DNA of 64,000 nucleotides from an uncultured Bdellovibrionales bacterium (GTDB taxonomy: Bacteria; Pseudomonadota; Alphaproteobacteria; Micavibrionales; GCA-2720935): NCBI GenBank assembly GCA_964351525.1, contig CAYGOD010000003.1, positions 136,121 to 200,120 of the forward strand, read 5' to 3'. Below the pieces are notes generated by a model, which did not search any database, was not told the DNA's origin, and worked only from the letters and a program-made list of their open reading frames with translations. The stretch's first letter is position 1, and the number at the start of each line of letters is the position of its first letter. This document shows positions 23,599-35,993 of the stretch, in pieces. Position numbers and translations under genes: made by a program.

Positions 23599-24406
23599 GA
23601 CGACGTTTTAAGTCGCTAATTTTACCATAGTCATAAATTTTTCCTTCTTCGTTTTTAATGAAGAAGATTTTACCCGTGGATTCTGACTTTTTTTGTAAGT
23701 ATATTTCTTTTTACATGATTCATGTTTTGTTCTCAAAAAATCCATTTGAATACACAAAAAAAATTCTTTAAGTTCAACTTATCAACACAGCAATTAACAA
23801 CACTCCTCTCAACGAGAAAAAGAGACAACTGCTGTATTGATGAATAGGAAGGCTTTTAGACACGCTTTACACGCGAAATATTACAGAAATTAATTGCACC
23901 CAGAACACGGTTCTAATTTTTGTAGAATAATAAATAAAGACCCAAGAATGGATCTAACAAAAGTGTAAAGATTAGCGGATAGAAGATAAGCTGACGCACC
24001 TTAACGTTAGACGTCCCTTATTTTTTAAACGACAATCACGTGACATAGTCCTGGCTGTGAAATGAATGATATGGTTCTTTTATCACTTATTTGCAGCCTT
24101 AAATTAAAGTCAGCTTTTTAAAGACCACGTGCTGTTATTAACGGTTTGAGGTTTTGTCAAAAGAGTATGGTAATGATGAATTGAAGATAAAAGAGAATTG
24201 GCTCATTCATTATTATTTCTTGCTCTGGTAAAAAGAAGGCTTGGTTTTTGAAAGAAACGACATGCGCTATTAAATGCGCCCAAAACAACAAAACACATTG
24301 TTTTGATGCGGGCTCTTTAGTGACTAAATTTTTATATGTCGAACAATCATTAACCTATGATTAAAACACGATTATTTTGTTTATTTTTATAAGAAGAGAG
24401 AAAAAT

Positions 24407-25927
24407 ATGTCTTACGTTGATGAAAACACACCAAACGACAATACATCAAAGAACAATACGTCATCAACAGACTCTCTTAATCCAAATTGGAACGCCGAGT
24501 GGGAGCGCATCAAACAAGCCTTTAAAGTAGAAATCGGTGAAACCGCTTTCCGCAGTTGGATTCGCCCCCTTTCTTTGAAAAACATTGATGGTTCTACGCT
24601 TCAATTAACGACGCCTACACGCTTTATGCGCGACTGGGTTCAAACACATTACAGCGACACGATCATGTCTTTATGGTCACAAGATGTCGCCAAAGTGATG
24701 AGTTTAGAAATCTTGATCGAGAGCAGTGCAAACACACCTGCGCCACAACGCTCTAGCATCCCCCACCGTAGTGGTTCATTGGTTGCAAATCAGTTAGCCG
24801 AAAACAAACAAGCGGGCAAAACATCAAACACATACCAACAAACAGGCTATACACAACCCGCCGCTGATTTATCACAAGAAGCCTTGGATTCATTATGTTC
24901 ACCGCTTGACCCACGCTTTACCTTTGATAAATTCGTCATTGGGAAATCAAACGAATTAGCACACGCTGCCGCACGCCGTGTAACAGAAACAAATACCGTT
25001 TCTTTTAATCCCCTTTATATTTATGGCGGTGTTGGTCTTGGTAAAACACACCTTATGCATGCCATTGCTTGGCGCATCCGTGAGACACAGCCAACACGCA
25101 AAGTCTTATACATGTCTGCTGAAAAATTCATGTATCAATTTATTCGTGCGTTGCGTTTTCGTGATTCCGTGACGTTCAAAGAACAATTCCGTTCAGTTGA
25201 TATCTTGATGATTGATGACATCCAATTCATTAGCGGTAAAGAATCAACACAAGAAGAATTTTTTCACACATTTAATGCCTTGATCGATCAGAACAAACAA
25301 ATCATCATCAGCTCAGACCGCAGTCCAAATGAATTAGAAGGCATTCAAGATCGCCTTAAGTCACGCCTTGGTTGGGGGCTAGTCGCCGATATTCATCCAT
25401 CAAATTATGATTTGCGCCTCAATATCTTAAAAGCAAAGTCCGCACAAATCGGCGCGAACGTACCACAAAAAGTACTTGAGTTTTTAGCACAGAAAATTTC
25501 ATCCAATATCCGTGAACTTGAAGGTGCGCTTAATCGTATTGTCGCCCACGCAGAATTGGTTGGACGCCCGATCACAATCGATTACACACAAGAAGTTTTA
25601 CAAGATCTATTGCGCGCTAATAACCGCCGTATAAGCATTGATGAAATTCAACGCAAAGTGTGTGAGCATTATAATCTACGCATGCCCGACATGCAGTCTG
25701 CTAGGCGTTCTCGTAACATTGCGCGCCCACGCCAAGTGGCTATGTATATGGCCAAACAACTAACGTCACGTTCACTGCCTGAAATTGGCCGTAAATTTGG
25801 CGGCCGTGACCATACAACAGTTATGCATGCCATTCGCAAGATCGAACAGCTTTCTAATGATGATCCGTCTTTTGGTGATGAAGTTGCTTTGGTACGTCGC
25901 TCTATCATGGATGCAGGTCGTCAATAG
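24407..25927 (+). CDS. dnaA: Chromosomal replication initiator DnaA
   Basis: NPLYIYGGVGLGKTHL, DDIQF, RELEGAL, RPRQVAMY, GGRDHTTVMHA; ATG 24407 preferred over 24377 (AGAAGAG upstream). Confidence 0.98.
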   Translation: MSYVDENTPNDNTSKNNTSSTDSLNPNWNAEWERIKQAFKVEIGETAFRSWIRPLSLKNIDGSTLQLTTPTRFMRDWVQTHYSDTIMSLWSQDVAKVMSLEILIESSANTPAPQRSSIPHRSGSLVANQLAENKQAGKTSNTYQQTGYTQPAADLSQEALDSLCSPLDPRFTFDKFVIGKSNELAHAAARRVTETNTVSFNPLYIYGGVGLGKTHLMHAIAWRIRETQPTRKVLYMSAEKFMYQFIRALRFRDSVTFKEQFRSVDILMIDDIQFISGKESTQEEFFHTFNALIDQNKQIIISSDRSPNELEGIQDRLKSRLGWGLVADIHPSNYDLRLNILKAKSAQIGANVPQKVLEFLAQKISSNIRELEGALNRIVAHAELVGRPITIDYTQEVLQDLLRANNRRISIDEIQRKVCEHYNLRMPDMQSARRSRNIARPRQVAMYMAKQLTSRSLPEIGRKFGGRDHTTVMHAIRKIEQLSNDDPSFGDEVALVRRSIMDAGRQ

Positions 25928-26230
25928 CCAAAACGAATCGGGTTCTCATTGCGTTGCGTATAGCCACCTGAACATAGGTTTCAGTACGCTTAATAAGCCG
26001 TTACGTTAAATACTTATCGTTATTTAGGGGATAAACACCCGAAAAGCAGCCCTAAGGGCACTAATCGCTATTTTCTTCTTTTTTTGAAGAGGATATATGC
26101 TAAATTTTTACAATAATAAAAATAACATTATTTTATACATCAACAGTCACGGCGATGCGCCACGGCTTTTATGTTTTAAGATTTTAGAACAGTGCCAAAA
26201 GCGCTTTTAATTAAAAAGGATTAAGCCCTC

Positions 26231-27352
26231 ATGAAATTTTCAATTGATCGTTCTGCCCTTCTTCGTTCCCTAGCCCACGTACAAAGTGCTGTTGAACGCC
26301 GTAACACTATTCCTATTCTTGCCAATGTCCTTCTTAAAGCCGATGGCAATAGCCTATCGTTAAGCACAACAGACATGGATCTTGAGATCAATGAAACGGT
26401 TGCTGCAAATGTAAGCGAAGGCGGTATCACAACCGCACCTGCTGGAACACTTTATGACATCGTGCGTAAATTGCCCGATGAAACATCAATTGATATCGAA
26501 ACATCGGCTGGCGATGCACTTATGACGGTCAAGGCCGGACGCTCTGAGTTTAAACTTGGTTGCTTACCTGCCGCAGACTTCCCACAATTATCGGCTGATG
26601 ATATGGGTATTCAATTCCAACTGCCTGCGGATGAGTTACGCAATTTGATTGATAAAACACGCTTTGCTATCTCTACAGAAGAAACACGCTATTACCTAAA
26701 CGGTATTTATATCCACGCTATTCAAATTGAAGATAAGTGGTTGTTACGCTGTGTTGCGACAGACGGTCACCGTTTGGCACGTTTTGAAACAGCACTACCA
26801 GAAGGCGCACAACAAATGCCTGGCGTAATTATCCCCCGTAAAACAGTTCTTGAACTGCGCAAATTGGTTGATGAAGCCGCTGATAAAATTACGATCCATT
26901 TATCAGAGACAAAGATTCGTTTTCAATTCGATCACATCATTTTAACATCAAAATTAATCGATGGTACCTTCCCTGATTACGAACGCGTTATCCCTGCGAA
27001 CAACGATAAGATCGTTGAGATTAATCCAAAGTCTTTGGCCTCAGCAGTTGATCGTGTATCAACAATTTCAACAGAGAAGACACGGGCGGTTAAGTTAAAT
27101 ATTAACGGTAAGAGCCTAACGCTGTCTGCCAATTCCCCAGACAGTGGCAGCGCGGTCGAAGAGTTAGAAATTAAAAATGACAATGAATATGGCATTGATA
27201 TTGGTTTCAATTCTCGCTACTTGCTTGATATTGCACAACAACTGCAAGGCGATAACATCCGCCTTAGCATGAATGATGGTTCTACAGCGACAATTATCCA
27301 AGACCTAGAAGACGAATCATCACTTTATGTCTTGATGCCAATGCGTGTTTGA
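26231..27352 (+). CDS. dnaN: DNA polymerase III beta clamp
   Basis: VERRNTIPILANV, ETRYYLNG, ATDGHRLA, GTFPDY, YVLMPMRV. Confidence 0.98.
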   Translation: MKFSIDRSALLRSLAHVQSAVERRNTIPILANVLLKADGNSLSLSTTDMDLEINETVAANVSEGGITTAPAGTLYDIVRKLPDETSIDIETSAGDALMTVKAGRSEFKLGCLPAADFPQLSADDMGIQFQLPADELRNLIDKTRFAISTEETRYYLNGIYIHAIQIEDKWLLRCVATDGHRLARFETALPEGAQQMPGVIIPRKTVLELRKLVDEAADKITIHLSETKIRFQFDHIILTSKLIDGTFPDYERVIPANNDKIVEINPKSLASAVDRVSTISTEKTRAVKLNINGKSLTLSANSPDSGSAVEELEIKNDNEYGIDIGFNSRYLLDIAQQLQGDNIRLSMNDGSTATIIQDLEDESSLYVLMPMRV

Positions 27353-27367
27353 TAAATAATCAAACAT

Positions 27368-28573
27368 ATGACGAATCACATTGATTATAAAATTGATACA
27401 AACAGACAGGCCGATCTTTCATTAAAAAAGATCAGCCTGTCTTTTTTTCGTTCTTACCAAACATTACGCCTTGAAAACCCCGCACAATTCACCGTTTTTG
27501 TTGGTGAAAATGGCGCGGGAAAAACAAATATTCTTGAGGCCATTAGCCTCCTAAGTCCTGGGCGTGGATTACGCGGTGCCAAATTAACCGACATACAAAA
27601 TATTCATCATCCCGCACCCTTATGGGCTGCATCATTTGAATTACAAACAGATAGTGGGCTTTGTCGGATTGGCACGTCATTTACCCGTGCGCCAAAAGAT
27701 AATGGCGATCTGTTAGAAAAACGTATTGTCAAAATTGATGGCACCATCACACCGCAAAATCGCCTAAGTGATTACCTATCCGTGATATGGTTAACCCCGC
27801 AAATGGATGGCTTGTTTTTAGATAGTAAATCAGCACGTCGTCGCTTCTTTGATCGCTTTGTACAAAATCTAAATTCTAATCATGCACAACTGCTCACTAG
27901 CTATGAAAACAGCCTGCGCCAACGCTCTCGTATTTTAAAGGACAGCCTAAAAAGCGGGAAGATTGATAATACATGGCTCAGCGCCTTAGAAAAAAACATG
28001 GCGGAAACCGCCGTGGCAATCGCCGCCAATCGTTTGAACCACCAAGATAAGTTGAATGAAGCCTTAAAGCGCCTTGAGCCTGTACGTCAATGTTTCCCGC
28101 TCTTAGAGATCGCCATCACAGGTGACACAGAACATCACCTATCCAACACCAGTGCTATTGAAACTGAAGATTACCTGAGAGATAGCCTATCAAATAGCCG
28201 TGCTATTGATGCCATCACAGGCGGTGCGGCGTGCGGTGCCCATAAGAGTGATCTTGATATTATTCATCTTGATAAATCGATGCCTGCTAATCAATGTTCA
28301 ACCGGTGAACAAAAGGCTATGCTCGTTTCTTTGGTTTTAGGACAAGCGACACTTATTCATGCAGAAAAAAACGTTCCGCCTCTTATTTTGCTGGACGATA
28401 TTGCATCTCACTTTGATTATAAACGTCAGCAAGATTTATTCTCATATCTTAAGTTCATCAACGCACCTTGTTTTATGACGGGCGTACAAAAATCAGCCTT
28501 TAAATCTTTGTATAATGACGCTGATTTTTATCATGTATCACAAGCACAAATTAAGAAAATTGATACGCTCTAA
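27368..28573 (+). CDS. recF: DNA replication/repair protein RecF
   Basis: FRSY, GENGAGKTN, RRRFFDR, STGEQK, LLDDI. Confidence 0.93.
   Translation: MTNHIDYKIDTNRQADLSLKKISLSFFRSYQTLRLENPAQFTVFVGENGAGKTNILEAISLLSPGRGLRGAKLTDIQNIHHPAPLWAASFELQTDSGLCRIGTSFTRAPKDNGDLLEKRIVKIDGTITPQNRLSDYLSVIWLTPQMDGLFLDSKSARRRFFDRFVQNLNSNHAQLLTSYENSLRQRSRILKDSLKSGKIDNTWLSALEKNMAETAVAIAANRLNHQDKLNEALKRLEPVRQCFPLLEIAITGDTEHHLSNTSAIETEDYLRDSLSNSRAIDAITGGAACGAHKSDLDIIHLDKSMPANQCSTGEQKAMLVSLVLGQATLIHAEKNVPPLILLDDIASHFDYKRQQDLFSYLKFINAPCFMTGVQKSAFKSLYNDADFYHVSQAQIKKIDTL
27404..27448 (+). terminator. Terminator-like hairpin inside the 5' end of recF
   Basis: AGACAGGC-C-GATCTTT / AAAGATC-A-GCCTGTCT followed by a T run. 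Confidence 0.55.
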
Positions 28574-28684
28574 ACGTCTTCTTAAAAATCCTTATAAATT
28601 ATTGTAATTAAAGCTTTTTCATTTGGTAAATAATCCTATTTTTATGGGGTTTTCCTTTGGTTTTCAGAGGGGAATTTGTTATAG

Positions 28685-31219
<2,535 letters not shown>

Positions 31220-31314: not shown

Positions 31315-34227
31315 TTACTTATCGTCTGTATCTGTTGGGATATCCTGAACCGCGTCACCTTCCTCAAACAAACCAGATTGTACGGTATTGGCCGCAGACT
31401 TTAATATATCTTCGACATCAGGGCTTAGGCCTTTAGGCATTGTCATCGCTTGAGCAACAGGAATATCTTGTGCATTATCTGATGTTTCATTAATCGTATT
31501 AACAGAATCATCTTGATTGGGCAGATCTTCAAGTGTCGAAATACTCTCGCGTTCAGTCGCAACGACGGCTTGCCCATCCTCCATATCTTCATCCACTGTA
31601 TTCGTCACAAAGCTGTCCCAGCTCAACGCATCATCCGCTTCATCTGCTGTATCTTTTATTTCAAAGCCATTTGCAGTTACGGGTAAATCCATTGGATCGT
31701 CATCAGGAACAGAGAATGATGGTCCTTCTTCATTAAGCGGTGCTAGATCTGCGGCTATATTAACATCATCTAAAACATCAACATTATCTGACATAAAATC
31801 AGTTGCATTCATTTCATCCGATATTTGACTAACGATTTCTTGTTGAGGATTATCCATCTCATCATCAGCCGAAGACATAAAGTCCCCCCAAGATGAGCCA
31901 GTTGTATCTTCTTCCTCTGAGACACTATTATCAACCGATGCCAAAGCAGTCGGTACTGTTATATCATCCGCCTCAACCACCTTGTCATCTTCATCATCAG
32001 TCATGAAGTCAGCCCATGAAGAACCACTATCTTCTTGTTCTTCTTCCAATGATACAGACGGTACGGCTGGTGATGCCTGAGGTGTATCATCCTCATCATC
32101 ATCGCCCATAAGATCCATCCAACTCATGCCAGTGTCACTTGATGAATCCTCACTTGTTGAAGCAGAGACGGTTATCGGTGCAGATACTGTTGAATTTACT
32201 GGTGAACTTAGTGGCGCTAGTGCTGGTTCAGGTTTCTTATAATCATCCATAAAGCCCATACCGACTTTGGCAACAGCCATCGTTCCTTGCTCTAAGGCGC
32301 TATGATCAGCTTTTTTAGCCGCCGCAAAGCCATCAACCATATCTTGGATTTTATCTTCCGTTTCAACTTTTGGTGCGGCGCTTTCGGCGCTCCATCCACG
32401 GGTACGATAATTATCAATGAAGGTGTTAATGGCTTTCTTCTGACGTAATTTAGATTCATCTGGCTTTGGTGGTTCTAACATTTTTTGAATACGCATTGAT
32501 TTTGCGTTTCCAGGATTAGAATAGAAGAAACTGATTTCTTCTAACATTTCACCAAAGGTAACAACGGCATCTCCCTCTTTAAAGGCACGAAGGCCATCAT
32601 AAGAAGCACGTGCGCGCGATTGCATAGATGCATCTTGCTTACCAACAAAGGACGATGATAAACCACCGGTATTCGTTTGGAACCCTGAAACCTCAGCCAC
32701 CAAAACATCACCGACTGTTTTTTCAAAAAACTCTTTTGTTTGTGTTGGATCCTCAAGCTTACCAAAGATTTTTAAGTTACAGTTAGCCGTGATCGAACGT
32801 GCTTCTTCTTTGACGCGTTTTTCCAACGCGGGTAAATCCTGTGCGGCATAAACAAGACAGAAACCAAGAGAGCGCGCCTGTGCCGCCATAACTGCCATGC
32901 CCTGTGCGGCGTAATAACCAACCTCATCAAAAATACAAATAAATGGTGTGGCCGATTCAGAGACTTTATTCTCAATAGTACTTTCAACATCCCCCTCAAC
33001 ATCAGCACCAAGTGTAGATCCCATCATGCCCTTAATTGTTGCGGCAACAATTTTACCAAGGTTAGCGGCCTCATCACTAGATTTTTCAAGGGCAGGAATC
33101 AACACGACCAACATACGACGGTTAAGAACGACATCCGTCATATCAATATCGGCAGCTTCAGTTTCAAAAACATACCCATAGTCATCTGCCAAAGATTGCA
33201 ATGAACGTGTAAACTGCATTGATAGATAACCATGCTGTTGACGCACTGTCGATGTATCAACCATCGGCGCATCCGGCGGCATAGGTTTCTCATTACCATC
33301 ATCATCGAAAACATCATCTACATAGCCAGGTAACGTGTCCAAATACCCCTTAATACCCATAGTAATTTTCTTTGGTACATCGGGATCACGAGACAAACGA
33401 ATAACATCGGGGAAGTTAAGCGCATGACGAATAGTATTAATATTCAACGGAATTTCTTGGTGGTCGCGCTTCCATGTCATGGCGGGCATTAATGAACCGA
33501 TCAATGAAACAGCACGTTCTTTCCACATGGCGTTATCACCGCCCGCGTCAGGCATCAATGTTACCATCAAGTTTGTTAAATAAGAGGCCGAGCCACCAGA
33601 AAATGGATTCAACGTATTTGACGGTGCACCTGCATCAGAGTTACCCGTCATATAGTTTAACACTAATAAATCATCATCACGTCCAAAGCGTCGTGCCAAA
33701 GCAGACATTGAACTCCACAATCCTGTGTCTGCCTTACCATCGACAAAGACAAACCCAGACCCCCAACACAGAGCATTTGTTACCAATGAAGTAAGACCAA
33801 CCGTCTTACCAGAACCGGTCGTTCCCAAATATAAAACGTGGGTTTTAATATCATTATTCGTGTACCAAATCTCGCCATTTGTATCTTTTGCATTACCGAC
33901 ATACATGATCCCCTCTGGGCGCTTATTACGACCAGGACCATTATTATGCTCATCTTTAATGCCCAGCTGAGACGCCGACATCGGTAATTTCGCTGGTAAT
34001 GTATGACCGCGTTTTTTTAACCACCAAAAATAAAGGAGGCAAAACACGAAAATGAAATCTGCGCCATACGCAATGATATCAAAGAAAATAATCGCCACAG
34101 CACACAAAATGAAAACGATTGGCTGAAAACTTTTATCGAGTAAGCTATCACGCATTTTTTGCAGAGGTGAGCGTACGTCTCGTAACGTATTTTTATGCTT
34201 ATAATGATATTTTTTTGCAATAGCCAC
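31315..34227 (-). CDS. icmO: Type IVB coupling protein IcmO/DotL (TrbC-like) with long acidic C-terminal extension
   Basis: N-terminal TM pair; LYLGTTGSGKT Walker A; FVFVDGKAD; NTLNPF; IFDEVGYY Walker B; QARSLGF; next to dotM. Confidence 0.88.
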   Translation of the reverse strand: MAIAKKYHYKHKNTLRDVRSPLQKMRDSLLDKSFQPIVFILCAVAIIFFDIIAYGADFIFVFCLLYFWWLKKRGHTLPAKLPMSASQLGIKDEHNNGPGRNKRPEGIMYVGNAKDTNGEIWYTNNDIKTHVLYLGTTGSGKTVGLTSLVTNALCWGSGFVFVDGKADTGLWSSMSALARRFGRDDDLLVLNYMTGNSDAGAPSNTLNPFSGGSASYLTNLMVTLMPDAGGDNAMWKERAVSLIGSLMPAMTWKRDHQEIPLNINTIRHALNFPDVIRLSRDPDVPKKITMGIKGYLDTLPGYVDDVFDDDGNEKPMPPDAPMVDTSTVRQQHGYLSMQFTRSLQSLADDYGYVFETEAADIDMTDVVLNRRMLVVLIPALEKSSDEAANLGKIVAATIKGMMGSTLGADVEGDVESTIENKVSESATPFICIFDEVGYYAAQGMAVMAAQARSLGFCLVYAAQDLPALEKRVKEEARSITANCNLKIFGKLEDPTQTKEFFEKTVGDVLVAEVSGFQTNTGGLSSSFVGKQDASMQSRARASYDGLRAFKEGDAVVTFGEMLEEISFFYSNPGNAKSMRIQKMLEPPKPDESKLRQKKAINTFIDNYRTRGWSAESAAPKVETEDKIQDMVDGFAAAKKADHSALEQGTMAVAKVGMGFMDDYKKPEPALAPLSSPVNSTVSAPITVSASTSEDSSSDTGMSWMDLMGDDDEDDTPQASPAVPSVSLEEEQEDSGSSWADFMTDDEDDKVVEADDITVPTALASVDNSVSEEEDTTGSSWGDFMSSADDEMDNPQQEIVSQISDEMNATDFMSDNVDVLDDVNIAADLAPLNEEGPSFSVPDDDPMDLPVTANGFEIKDTADEADDALSWDSFVTNTVDEDMEDGQAVVATERESISTLEDLPNQDDSVNTINETSDNAQDIPVAQAMTMPKGLSPDVEDILKSAANTVQSGLFEEGDAVQDIPTDTDDK

Positions 34228-34270: not shown

Positions 34271-34771
34271 TTATTCTGCGTTATCGCTTGGTAAAAGCAC
34301 ATCATCCAGAAGGATCGGTGTGCCTGCTTCAATCATATTAATATCTGGTTTTTCGGTTTGTAACGGCAACGTTGCTTGGTTATGTTCAACATTTACCTTT
34401 TCATTGCCCAAGAAGAATGATCCAAACAGAACATACAAGATAACAAAAAATGCCGCAAAAATAATAAGGCTTTGCAACCAGCCCATTTTTGATCCCGCAT
34501 CTTGAACGTTATCATTTTTACGATCAGAAACGGTTAAAACATCTGTCACTTTTTGAAAAGCTGTTAGTGCTTCTTGATGGTCTTTAAAATCAACAACTGT
34601 CGTTGCTTCTCCTGACTCTGGCTCCATGATTAAATTTGTTTTAGTTTTTAGTTTCTTCAAAGAAAATGTTGCCATTTGAGCGGCTTGCAAATCACAGCGC
34701 CACAAAATAGGACTATCCCCATCTGTACGGGAAATAATAAGGGCATCATCTACTCTTTTAATATCAATCAT
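34271..34771 (-). CDS. Single-TM hypothetical protein between icmP and icmO
   Basis: About 95-aa soluble N-domain, one TM (WLQSLIIFAAFFVILYVLFGSFFL); tight operonic spacing. Confidence 0.75.
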   Translation of the reverse strand: MIDIKRVDDALIISRTDGDSPILWRCDLQAAQMATFSLKKLKTKTNLIMEPESGEATTVVDFKDHQEALTAFQKVTDVLTVSDRKNDNVQDAGSKMGWLQSLIIFAAFFVILYVLFGSFFLGNEKVNVEHNQATLPLQTEKPDINMIEAGTPILLDDVLLPSDNAE

Positions 34772-34784
34772 CTTTTATACCTTT

Positions 34785-35993
34785 TTATTTATTAGAACCT
34801 GCTGGTTTCATGATCCCACGCGTAGCTTTAGCACCACGGTAATCTAGCTTAGGAATTACGATAGGGTCGTTTTTAACCAAATAATCTCCTAAGGACTGAA
34901 CCGCCGATGCGACCTGTGGCATTGGAATAGCGCGATCCATCATCTTTTCCGCTGCGAAGTGAGACATAACCCCCATCGCCTCTGCATGAAAGGAACGACG
35001 GCCTAAGTTATTAAGCGGATACCAAAGATCACGGTCATGTCCGCGCAACCAAACAAAAGACGCCGATGCCATAACCCCACCCTTTGAACGCGCATATTGT
35101 AGAGCGCGCAACATCGCTGTCTTAACATAGGCATGTCTGTTTGCCTCTAAATATACTGCCTTTGTTAATTTTGCATCTTTTAAAATTTTATTTGTTTGTG
35201 CTTTTACCGCACCAGATATGATCAATCCCTTTTTCGGGTGCCAACACAGCGCGAGATTATTTAATAAATCATCCGCCTCTTTACGTTTACGAGAAGATTT
35301 TAGGGCAAAAATTGCAAAAAGAACGCGTTCATGGGCGTTCAAAGATCCTATCCCCTTCCAACGACGTCCCAATTGCTGAACAAATACATTCTTGGCAGCG
35401 ATCTCATCTAACTGACCATCGGGCATGGGTATCATTGAATGAGCAATAAACTCTTCGGGCGAAAGAGCTTCTGAAAAACGAGGCAACTCTGCTGGCACGG
35501 GTGCACCAGGAACACGAAATGGTTCATTATTAGGGTTATATTTCACAAAAGGCTTAATAACAGGGAATGTTTTTGCCTGTTCAACAATAAGATCATCCAA
35601 GCCCATTGTACGGTGATACAAAGCACCAGGACCACGAAAAACAGACCAAATTGCCATGAGCACCATGAAAAATGCGAAAGGCCATTTATATAAATCCATT
35701 GTAGCACGCGTAAATAATCCCATATGGGCGGTCTCTAGATCATCCTTGTGGGCGCTCCCCATAAAGTCCAATAAATCACGCGCAGAAATTTCTTGGCCAA
35801 ATGCCGCATCAACATGCGTATAGTTCTCACCAAAAATTAGAGCAATCAGTGAAAACTCACCGTAACGCAACCATCTTAGTCCGCTCATTAATTCAGCACT
35901 GAAAAAATACCAGATAGCAAAAGCCGCACCACCAATAACAAGAATTAATAATGCTAATAAAACAGGGCTGTCATCTTGACTTTGACCAGACAT
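34785..35993 (-). CDS. icmP: Type IVB secretion protein IcmP/DotM (TrbA-like)
   Basis: N-terminal TMs; ALSPEEF, F..QLG..W, HAYVKT, WLRGHDRDLWYPLNNLGR..AEAMGVMSH..AE. Confidence 0.88.
   Translation of the reverse strand: MSGQSQDDSPVLLALLILVIGGAAFAIWYFFSAELMSGLRWLRYGEFSLIALIFGENYTHVDAAFGQEISARDLLDFMGSAHKDDLETAHMGLFTRATMDLYKWPFAFFMVLMAIWSVFRGPGALYHRTMGLDDLIVEQAKTFPVIKPFVKYNPNNEPFRVPGAPVPAELPRFSEALSPEEFIAHSMIPMPDGQLDEIAAKNVFVQQLGRRWKGIGSLNAHERVLFAIFALKSSRKRKEADDLLNNLALCWHPKKGLIISGAVKAQTNKILKDAKLTKAVYLEANRHAYVKTAMLRALQYARSKGGVMASASFVWLRGHDRDLWYPLNNLGRRSFHAEAMGVMSHFAAEKMMDRAIPMPQVASAVQSLGDYLVKNDPIVIPKLDYRGAKATRGIMKPAGSNK

What the first reader, a model, noticed from the sequence alone, without database searches (positions are those of the whole stretch)
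31315..32250. DotL acidic tail with four Trp-anchored repeats
Seen: after the ATPase domain comes a roughly 300-aa D/E/S-rich low-complexity tail. It contains GMSWMDLMGDDDE (about 32106-32130), GSSWADFMTDDED (about 32002-32025), GSSWGDFMSSADDE (about 31876-31899) and ALSWDSFV (about 31606-31626). Established: the Legionella DotL C-terminal extension docks DotN, IcmSW and LvgA. Inference: the repeats are tandem docking motifs. The acidic tail may capture basic-tailed substrates (a charge-inverted signal). Alternatively it may mimic an E-block on DotM, which retains a basic patch (SSRKRK).
Basis: partly seen in the sequence, partly recalled or inferred. Interest (0 to 1): 0.72.

Follow-up and report, generated by a model that had tools for sequence, protein, structure and literature searches.

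The report
Tryptophan docking motifs in DotL tail
The ATPase that feeds proteins into a Legionella-type secretion machine of a Micavibrio-like predatory bacterium ends in a long, floppy, very acidic tail with four conserved tryptophan motifs, probably docking hooks for an unidentified partner that stand where Legionella binds its IcmS/IcmW adaptors, which this group lacks.

Summary
Window 31315-34227(-) encodes a 970-aa DotL/IcmO coupling ATPase. Its tail has a predicted disordered stretch (residues 663-929, D+E 25%) with four S-W-x-[DS]-phi-phi motifs. The organism belongs to Micavibrionales (Alphaproteobacteria), not Legionellales.

The motif (consensus P-phi-S-W-x-D-phi-phi-G) recurs in DotL tails across the order in 0-5 copies. 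It holds 120 of 145 tail tryptophans and is 2-2.5 times better conserved than the linkers. In 1.84 billion representative proteins the array turned up only in DotL, apart from two FN3 false positives. Acidity is not conserved (net charge per residue -0.29 to +0.14), so the motif is the selected feature.

IcmS and IcmW were not detected in 41 Micavibrionales genomes, with positive controls. DotN is present, and only the DotN-binding part of the tail is homologous to Legionella-type DotL.

Best reading: multivalent docking motifs for a trans partner that is still unidentified. One lead is the conserved 166-aa gene between dotM and dotL, which models with a PH-like cytoplasmic domain. The DotM "E-block mimic" idea and charge capture as the conserved function got no support.

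This scan already reported the same W-type and a related FG-type tail in other Micavibrionales genomes; I found no paper describing them. It is a new variant of a known kind.

The parts
31315..34227 (-). dotL/icmO: 970-aa type IVB coupling ATPase
   Evidence: 6sz9_A DotL at E 1e-136 over residues 14-604. Pfam TrwB_AAD_bind, T4SS-DNA_transf and TraG-D_C. NCBIfam TrbC_conju 371 bits, below its cut-off.
32248..32439 (-). Proximal tail, residues 597-660: three helices with invariant W612; presumed DotN-docking region
   Evidence: AF2 helices 597-608, 625-639 and 644-660, pLDDT 75-88 over 620-660. hhalign to the proximal tail of Legionellales-type DotL gives probability 82%, E 1e-5. W612 is invariant in A1 and A2. 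DotN is encoded in G000 at C2:73429-74142.
31441..32241 (-). Predicted disordered acidic linker, residues 663-929
   Evidence: AF2 pLDDT about 30-35 with no secondary structure. Net charge per residue -0.25, the second most acidic of 119 tails.
32092..32130 (-). W motif 1, GMSWMDLMGDDDE (residues 700-712)
   Evidence: Positionally conserved in three family members.
31987..32025 (-). W motif 2, GSSWADFMTDDED (residues 735-747)
   Evidence: Positionally conserved; the W is replaced by F in L003 (FSFGDIMG).
31858..31899 (-). W motif 3, GSSWGDFMSSADDE (residues 777-790)
   Evidence: Positionally conserved.
31606..31629 (-). W motif 4, ALSWDSFV (residues 867-874), a weaker copy (S instead of D at +2)
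   Evidence: Identical in P0002, FSFGDIM in L003, lost in L002.
31786..31806 (-). Degenerate Trp-less copy ATDFMSD (residues 808-814)
   Evidence: Conserved as STDFMSD in P0002. Status as a motif is uncertain.
31366..31422 (-). Conserved C-terminal amphipathic helix, residues 936-954 (DVEDILKSAANTVQSGLF)
   Evidence: AF2 helix 936-954, pLDDT 69-78. Consensus L.DE...IL..AA.....GLF in A1 and A2. No homology to the Legionellales IcmSW-binding region. Absent from most other multi-W tails.
34271..34771 (-). 166-aa bitopic membrane protein between dotM and dotL: PH-like cytoplasmic domain, TM helix, conserved periplasmic C-terminal motif. Candidate partner only.
   Evidence: Present directly upstream of dotL in 118 of 119 Micavibrionales loci. 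AF2 pLDDT about 95 for residues 1-85, with six beta strands (E2-E62) and helix 65-85, plus TM helix 97-120. The Foldseek top list is mostly PH-like folds, but the best E is 0.077. No Pfam, NCBIfam or PDB sequence hit.
34785..35993 (-). dotM/icmP
   Evidence: PF23127 DotM_C at E 5e-50. NF033890 at 186 bits, below its 230-bit cut-off. 6sz9_B at E 2e-24.

Best explanation
The region is the C-terminal extension of the DotL coupling ATPase of a Micavibrionales type IVB secretion system. It has three parts:
- a helical proximal part homologous to the DotN-binding part of Legionella-type DotL
- a roughly 270-residue predicted disordered linker
- a conserved terminal amphipathic helix

The linker carries four copies of a short linear motif, S-W-x-D-phi-phi (order-wide consensus P-phi-S-W-x-D-phi-phi-G). 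I read these copies as multivalent docking sites. On this reading they fold or add a strand only when bound to a protein partner acting in trans. If DotL is a hexamer, as in the Legionella model (PMC7280309), that gives about 24 hooks at the cytoplasmic mouth of the channel. The hooks would hold adaptors or substrates there, taking over the role that the IcmSW-binding tail plays in Legionella.

Shown here: the motif's presence, its conservation, its restriction to DotL tails, the predicted disorder, the non-detection of IcmS and IcmW, and the presence of DotN.

Inferred: that the motif binds a protein, and which protein. The extreme acidity is specific to this family. It may tune affinity or keep the tail extended, but it is not the conserved determinant.
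For: - Motif recurrence: 61 of 119 Micavibrionales DotL tails have at least one W-x-x-phi-phi copy and 26 have 2-5. 120 of 145 tail Trp residues lie in the motif. Position-specific conservation: P -3 (52%), S -1 (70%), D/E +2 (72%), G +5 (52%).
- Within three families, motif columns are 0.61, 0.82 and 0.60 identical against 0.29, 0.47 and 0.24 for linkers, and linker lengths vary.
- A profile of the motif searched against 1.84 billion representatives returned only DotL or DotL-tail fragments plus two FN3-repeat false positives.
- AF2 leaves the motifs unstructured and not docked in cis.
- Four Legionellales-type DotL tails have no such motif.
- IcmS and IcmW: 0 of 41 genomes, with working positive controls.
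- DotN: 40 of 41 genomes.
- A full T4BSS core (DotI, DotH, DotG, DotN, and a 991-aa ORF in the DotO position with no family hit) is present in the genome.
- Acidic, sequence-variable C-terminal domains of coupling proteins that dock partners are an established class, for example TraD-TraM and VirD4 (review PMC7434980).
Against:
- 58 of 119 tails have no W-type copy, although most of those carry other short hydrophobic motifs (PMGFF, KPAIFGG). A W-specific partner is therefore not universal, or the pocket tolerates F.
- The DotL AF2 model is poor overall (mean pLDDT 53.5), so failure to dock in cis is weak evidence.
- The motif-versus-linker identity contrast is inflated because the alignments anchor on the motifs.
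Confidence: 0.55

Rival explanations
1. The partner is specifically the cytoplasmic PH-like domain of the 166-aa membrane protein encoded between dotM and dotL. It would bind the motif the way the TFIIH p62 PH domain binds acidic strings, with the aromatic residue in one pocket and the residue three positions later in a second pocket.
For: - The gene is directly upstream of dotL in 118 of 119 loci and has no hit in the four Legionellales-type loci.
- The AF2 N-terminal domain has pLDDT about 95 with a beta-sandwich plus C-terminal helix.
- The Foldseek list is dominated by PH, PTB and FERM-F3 folds, many of which are peptide binders, and it includes p62 PH.
- The positive-inside rule puts the domain in the cytoplasm.
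- p62 PH binds acidic disordered strings through W/F and a V at +3 (PMC5727438), the same W-x-x-phi pattern.
Against: - No Foldseek hit is significant (best E 0.077).
- The domain is not basic (net charge about 0; -2 in the window) and does not covary with tail charge (rho -0.08), unlike p62 PH.
- The gene is equally present in lineages without W motifs.
- No interaction was tested.
Confidence: 0.18
2. The tail works mainly by charge. It would be a polyanionic brush that captures substrates bearing basic C-terminal tails, the inverse of the Legionella E-block/DotM logic and similar to the logic of type IVA signals.
For: - Net charge of the linker is -67.
- 43 proteins of the genome carry +7 or more in their last 20 residues. 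These include members of tandem orphan paralogue arrays.
- Acidic coupling-protein C-terminal domains are known (PMC7434980).
- An earlier scan note on another Micavibrio-like genome proposes basic Pro-rich export tails (e1-2367399, not checked here).
Against: - Acidity is not conserved. The linker net charge per residue ranges from -0.29 to +0.14 with a median of -0.05.
- Relatives with four W motifs can be nearly neutral.
- Charge alone does not explain an invariant Trp with fixed neighbours.
- Many basic-tailed proteins in the list look like ribosomal or nucleoid proteins (my reading of the tail sequences).
Confidence: 0.12
3. The motifs are stickers in a sticker-and-spacer tail. Tails of neighbouring DotL subunits and complexes would cohere into, or recruit clients into, an FG-nucleoporin-like mesh or condensate at the channel entrance.
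For: - Other Micavibrionales tails carry 4-7 KP[AS][IV]FGG repeats in uncharged P/A/T/Q-rich spacers that resemble FG repeats.
- W-type, F-variant and FG-type motifs replace one another between lineages.
- If DotL is a hexamer, the copies add up to high valency.
Against: - The window's spacers are strongly acidic, which should oppose self-association without a basic client.
- There is no experimental or computational test of cohesion.
- The fixed flanking residues (P, S, D, G) suggest a defined pocket rather than generic hydrophobic contacts.
Confidence: 0.08
4. The acidic tail folds back on DotM as a pseudo-substrate that mimics an effector E-block.
For: The DotM cytoplasmic domain is net positive (+8 to +19) and carries a conserved RKR(K) patch. 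Legionella DotM binds acidic Glu-rich peptides (PMC5802825).
Against: - The Legionella binding residues R196, R197, R217 and R315 are D, E, S and D here; only R314 is kept.
- Neither the DotM patch charge nor the DotM domain charge covaries with tail charge (rho -0.08 and -0.03).
- The tail is Asp-rich rather than Glu-rich (60 D, 32 E).
Confidence: 0.05
5. The tail is a neutral low-complexity expansion, and the motifs are by-products of composition.
For: The tail is compositionally biased, varies in length and is predicted disordered.
Against: - Trp is rare, yet 83% of tail Trp residues sit in one fixed context across families whose DotL proteins are about 50% identical.
- The copies hold their positions.
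- Proteome-wide the pattern is rare.
Confidence: 0.02

Closest known systems
C-terminal tail of Legionella pneumophila DotL/IcmO in the type IV coupling complex (PDB 6sz9, 7ovb; PMC7280309, PMC7251119, PMC3441705)
   Same: Same protein family and same position after the ATPase. The proximal part is homologous to the region that binds DotN, and DotN and DotM are present. In both, the tail is the platform that holds accessory proteins.
   Different: - The distal part has no detectable homology, and IcmS and IcmW were not detected in the order.
- The tail is about twice as long and mostly predicted disordered.
- It carries repeated Trp motifs and a different terminal helix.
- A 166-aa membrane protein is inserted between dotM and dotL.
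Acidic C-terminal domains of type IVA coupling proteins (F-plasmid TraD tail binding TraM; VirD4 C-terminal domains; review PMC7434980)
   Same: A sequence-variable, Asp/Glu-rich extension of a coupling ATPase. In TraD an acidic peptide ending in an aromatic residue docks a partner (from my own knowledge of Lu et al. 2008, which the review cites).
   Different: Those tails carry one terminal docking peptide rather than a multi-copy internal motif. They belong to a different subfamily (VirD4/TraD rather than DotL/TrbC), and their partners there are relaxosome proteins.
Acidic strings that bind the TFIIH p62/Tfb1 PH domain (XPC, UVSSA, TFIIE-alpha, p53; PMC5727438)
   Same: A disordered acidic stretch followed by W or F, with a hydrophobic residue three positions later. 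It binds only on contact with the partner. A PH-like domain is encoded next to dotL.
   Different: This is a eukaryotic nuclear system with no homology implied. The bacterial PH-like domain is not basic, and its fold assignment is not statistically significant. It is an analogy only.
W-type and FG-type DotL tails reported earlier in this scan from other Micavibrionales genomes (e1-2413518, e1-2391874, e1-4054181)
   Same: The same motif family in orthologous DotL tails, with the same inference of docking sites replacing IcmSW binding.
   Different: The window's family is the acidic extreme. It usually has G rather than P at -3. It also combines three or more W motifs with the terminal helix, which most other multi-W tails lack.

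Membership tests
DotL/IcmO type IVB coupling protein | Nucleotide-binding and all-alpha domains homologous to DotL | tested here: met
   6sz9_A at E 1e-136 over residues 14-604. Walker A GTTGSGKT is invariant.
DotL/IcmO type IVB coupling protein | N-terminal membrane anchor | tested here: met
   Hydrophobic residues 34-72, predicted as helices 34-48, 50-54 and 56-72.
DotL/IcmO type IVB coupling protein | Encoded with dotM, in a genome that has a type IVB core machine | tested here: met
   dotM lies 558 nt upstream, with the 166-aa gene between. DotI, DotH, DotG, DotN and TraQ-like genes are at G000 C2:73-81 kb, next to an unannotated 991-aa ORF in the DotO position.
DotL/IcmO type IVB coupling protein | Tail region that binds DotN | tested here: inconclusive
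   hhalign probability 82%, E 1e-5 to the Legionellales-type proximal tail. DotN is present in 40 of 41 genomes. Binding itself was not tested.
Legionella-type coupling complex with IcmSW adaptor module | IcmS and IcmW encoded in the genome | tested here: not met
   PF12608: 0 of 41 genomes, while it hit 4 genomes in a 401-genome phylum sample. NF038222: 0 of 41 at a significant level, against 4 of 4 control genomes.
Legionella-type coupling complex with IcmSW adaptor module | Distal DotL tail homologous to the IcmSW-binding region | tested here: not met
   hhalign probability 0.15%. The tail has no PDB sequence hit.
Acidic C-terminal domain of coupling proteins (TraD/VirD4 type) | Asp/Glu-enriched, sequence-variable extension after the ATPase | tested here: met
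   D+E 25% and K+R 4%. Tail length varies from 137 to 497 residues across the order.
Acidic C-terminal domain of coupling proteins (TraD/VirD4 type) | Binds a substrate-presenting partner | not testable with these tools
   No multi-chain prediction or binding assay was available.
PH-domain-binding acidic string (TFIIH p62 type), by analogy | Acidic disordered stretch, then W/F, with a hydrophobic residue at +3 | tested here: met
   DSSSDTGMSWMDL, EQEDSGSSWADF, EEDTTGSSWGDF and DEADDALSWDSF. Predicted disordered.
PH-domain-binding acidic string (TFIIH p62 type), by analogy | A PH-domain partner with a basic binding groove | tested here: inconclusive
   The neighbouring 166-aa protein has PH-like topology, but the best Foldseek E is 0.077 and its net charge is about 0.
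FG-repeat-like cohesive disordered domain | Many short hydrophobic motifs in uncharged spacers | tested here: not met
   The window has 4-6 motifs, but its spacers carry -0.25 charge per residue. FG-type relatives do fit.

The most novel reading that the evidence does not exclude
Micavibrionales replaced the IcmS/IcmW chaperone module of type IVB secretion with a different recruitment system. It would consist of a membrane-anchored PH-like protein encoded between dotM and dotL and a multivalent array of W-x-x-phi (or F-G) hooks on the DotL tail. Together they would gather substrates at the channel of a machine used by bacterial predators against bacterial prey. This would be a bacterial counterpart of PH-domain/acidic-string recognition.
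Probability: 0.15. Interest if true: 0.75.

Novelty: new variant of a known kind. Interest (0 to 1): 0.5.

Why it matters
Type IVB secretion is understood almost entirely from Legionella and Coxiella, where effector choice depends on IcmSW, LvgA and DotM.

Micavibrionales are bacterial predators. Their type IVB system has barely been noticed. The first Micavibrio genome paper reported no type IV system (PMC3189940), and one survey lists the system in seven marine members (PMC9418006).

A coupling protein that keeps DotM and DotN but lacks IcmSW shows that substrate recruitment in this machine family can be rebuilt. It also carries a conserved multi-copy peptide motif, which gives a small, defined handle: a roughly 10-residue peptide that can be used to fish for the partner and, through it, for the substrates of a secretion system that may act on prey bacteria.

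Tried and rejected
- Sequence search of the tail against the PDB found only a chance Nup58 FG-region match (E 1.6).
- A word-based homologue search on the tail found only one close relative.
- The proteome-wide motif scan for other carriers found only single hits in proteins I took to be folded enzymes (unannotated; one looks like KatG, LSWADLM), and no candidate effectors.
- All-against-all comparison of C-terminal 130-aa segments, looking for a shared effector domain, gave only housekeeping families and three orphan tandem arrays. Pfam and NCBIfam gave nothing for representatives of those arrays.
- AF2 of full-length DotL was of low quality (mean pLDDT 53.5) and showed no docking of motifs in cis.
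- Three charge-covariation tests were all null: DotM patch against tail, DotM cytoplasmic-domain charge against tail net charge, and PH-like domain against tail.
- The DNA repeat search showed no recent duplication.
- One search was a mistyped reference. Searches were format errors that I corrected.
- I considered membrane-interface anchoring by the Trp motifs and set it aside, because acidic flanks disfavour binding to an anionic membrane. It was not tested.
Full report
**What is there.** The ORF at 31315-34227 on the minus strand encodes a 970-aa protein. Residues 14-604 align with Legionella pneumophila DotL/IcmO (PDB 6sz9_A, E 1e-136). Nothing beyond residue 604 aligns. Pfam and NCBIfam give coupling-protein families. 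Upstream lie a 166-aa ORF with no family hit and dotM (PF23127 at E 5e-50; NF033890 at 186 bits, below its cut-off).

The tail (605-970) has 25% D+E against 4% K+R. Across the genome's 1916 ORFs the strict pattern [ST]W.[DE]-phi-phi occurs in ten proteins, and only DotL has three or more copies. There is no DNA-level repetition beyond short acidic-codon matches.

**Whose gene it is.** Relatives fetched from named genome records are Micavibrio aeruginosavorus, Micavibrio sp. and unnamed alphaproteobacterial MAGs. The window therefore lies in a member of the order Micavibrionales, not Legionellales. The genome is 1.95 Mb in 29 contigs. DotL was found in 40 of 41 genomes sampled from the order.

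The genome also encodes a type IVB core. DotI, DotH, DotG and DotN lie together on contig 2, next to a 991-aa ORF in the DotO position that was not scanned against any family. The first Micavibrio genome paper stated there was no evidence for a type IV system (PMC3189940). One later survey lists the system in seven marine Micavibrionales (PMC9418006). I found no paper on the DotL tail.

**Anatomy of the tail.** An AlphaFold2 model built on 42 orthologues is poor overall (mean pLDDT 53.5) but gives a clear pattern for the tail:
- Helices at 597-608, 625-639 and 644-660, with pLDDT 75-88 over residues 620-660.
- No structure and pLDDT about 30-35 from 663 to 929. All four motifs lie in this stretch.
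- A helix at 936-954, with pLDDT 69-78.

Profile-profile comparison shows that the proximal part is homologous to the proximal tail of four Legionellales-type DotL proteins (probability 82%). The distal part is not homologous to theirs (probability 0.15%). In Legionella the proximal tail binds DotN and the distal tail wraps IcmS-IcmW (PMC7280309).

**Adaptor genes.** DotN (NF038221) was found in 40 of 41 Micavibrionales genomes. IcmS (PF12608) was found in none of the 41, while the same search hit four genomes in a 401-genome sample of the phylum. IcmW (NF038222) was found in all four of those control genomes at E 1e-46 to 1e-51. It was found in none of the 41 at a meaningful level. "Not found in those searched" is the correct wording, and very divergent analogues cannot be excluded.

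**The motif is a conserved short linear motif.**
- In 119 Micavibrionales DotL tails, 61 have at least one W-x-x-phi-phi copy and 26 have two to five.
- 120 of the 145 tryptophans beyond W612 lie in that context.
- The consensus from 101 distinct instances is P-phi-S-W-x-D-phi-phi-G followed by acidic or small residues.
- Within the window's own family, copies 1-3 hold their positions while the linkers change in sequence and length. In one member several copies have F in place of W (FSFGDIMG).
- Pairwise identity in motif columns against linker columns is 0.61 against 0.29 in the window's family. It is 0.82 against 0.47 and 0.60 against 0.24 in two other families. The caveat is that the alignments anchor on the motifs.
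- A 31-column profile of the motif was searched against 1.84 billion representative proteins. It returned eleven proteins at E up to 0.001. Nine are DotL or DotL-tail fragments, one of them (P0010) only probably so. Two are fibronectin type III repeat proteins, which are false positives of a different nature. The array is therefore specific to DotL tails.

**What is and is not conserved.**
- Acidity is not conserved. Net charge per residue of the linker runs from -0.29 to +0.14 across the order, with a median of -0.05. The window, at -0.25, is the second most acidic. Tails with three or more W motifs span -0.25 to -0.04.
- Other lineages carry different short hydrophobic motifs in the same place. 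One type is a single PMGFF-like motif. Another is four to seven KP[AS][IV]FGG repeats in long Pro/Ala/Thr/Gln-rich tails.
- 17 of 20 tails with three or more W motifs lack the terminal helix, and 15 of them end in a W motif. The window's family alone combines both features.

- DotM mimicry. Legionella DotM binds Glu-rich peptides through R196, R197, R217, R314 and R315 (PMC5802825). The charge of the whole cytoplasmic domain does not covary either (rho -0.03).
- Charge capture. The genome does contain many proteins with strongly basic C-terminal tails and three tandem arrays of orphan paralogues. This fits an earlier scan note on another genome. However, because tail acidity is confined to certain lineages, charge capture cannot be the conserved function of the motif array.

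**A candidate partner.** The 166-aa gene sits directly upstream of dotL in 118 of 119 Micavibrionales loci. All 150 database relatives are unnamed and have no Pfam domain.
- With 54 orthologues, AlphaFold2 gives pLDDT about 95 for residues 1-85 (six beta strands, E2-E62, followed by helix 65-85), then a transmembrane helix at 97-120.
- Foldseek finds no significant match (best E 0.077). The list is nevertheless dominated by PH-like folds: Rtt106, FERM F3, Avo1/Sin1, a bacterial PH domain, TFIIH p62 and X11 PTB.
- The positive-inside rule places the domain in the cytoplasm. A nearly invariant C-terminal GVP.SADDFL motif would then lie in the periplasm.
- PH-like domains often bind peptides. The p62 PH domain binds acidic disordered strings through a W or F and a valine three residues later (PMC5727438), which is the pattern seen here.
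- Against this, the bacterial domain is not basic, does not covary in charge with the tail, and occurs equally in lineages without W motifs.

I treat this as a lead at about 18%.

**Verdict.** The finding is real. The repeats are best read as multivalent docking motifs on a predicted disordered, lineage-specific DotL tail, in a type IVB system in which the IcmSW module was not detected. The partner is unknown.

Earlier follow-ups in this scan reached the same reading for W-type tails (e1-2413518, e1-2391874) and an FG-type tail (e1-4054181) in other Micavibrionales genomes. I saw those notes only after my own census. This window therefore adds the acidic extreme of a feature the scan already knows. 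It also adds controlled negative searches for IcmS and IcmW, evidence that the array is exclusive to DotL, negative tests of the DotM and charge ideas, and the PH-like neighbour as a testable partner.

Noticed in passing
window 34271-34771 (-): The 166-aa gene between dotM and dotL models as a PH-like cytoplasmic domain, one TM helix and a periplasmic tail. In relatives the tail ends in a nearly invariant GVP.SADDFL (TPILLDDVLL in the window). That C-terminal motif has the same P-phi-S-x-x-D-phi-phi pattern as the DotL motif but would lie on the other side of the membrane.
   Followed up: partly
L075, L093, L102, L106-L108, L112 (DotL tails of other Micavibrionales): Long (390-500 aa) Pro/Ala/Thr/Gln-rich DotL tails carry 3-7 KP[AS][IV]FGG repeats that resemble nucleoporin FG repeats. 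In L108 the terminal helix motif (ALMKAA.EVK.NLFG) is itself repeated three times.
   Followed up: partly
G000 C2:188914-200623, C1:235427-239736, C4:23764-26332 (outside the window): Three tandem arrays of 7, 4 and 4 orphan paralogues. A representative of each has no Pfam or NCBIfam hit. Members of the first two arrays end in strongly basic tails. They are possible secretion substrates.
   Followed up: partly
G000 whole proteome: 43 proteins carry a net charge of +7 or more in their last 20 residues. Several end in F/L-K-P-like sequences (RFKPKS, TFKPLK, GAFKPS, RALKP, RKLKP). This matches another first-stage note on this window about basic-tailed orphans.
   Followed up: no
G000 C2:75955-78902 and C2:98860-100317: DotG (427 aa), an unannotated 534-aa ORF beside it (DotF-like by position only) and a 485-aa ORF of unknown family near 99 kb have very acidic, Phe-studded N-terminal regions (for example DFGSDFSDGEFDDDGF). 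Acidic aromatic stretches are therefore not confined to DotL in this machine.
   Followed up: no
L058 (NZ_CP195303.1, Micavibrio aeruginosavorus HCB189): A cultured Micavibrio aeruginosavorus chromosome encodes dotM, the 166-aa gene and dotL. The 2011 genome paper on strain ARL-13 reported no type IV secretion system.
   Followed up: partly
L004 (G028:C4:350292-350621): Just downstream of one relative's dotL there is a second short match to the distal tail (query residues 863-965, E 9e-4). It could be a duplicated or split tail segment.
   Followed up: no
window 24377-31219 (+): dotL lies directly beside gyrB, with 373-aa and 401-aa ORFs upstream of it that I read as dnaN and recF and a 516-aa ORF that may be dnaA (none scanned against a family library). 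If so, the coupling operon sits in the core chromosome close to the likely replication origin.
   Followed up: no
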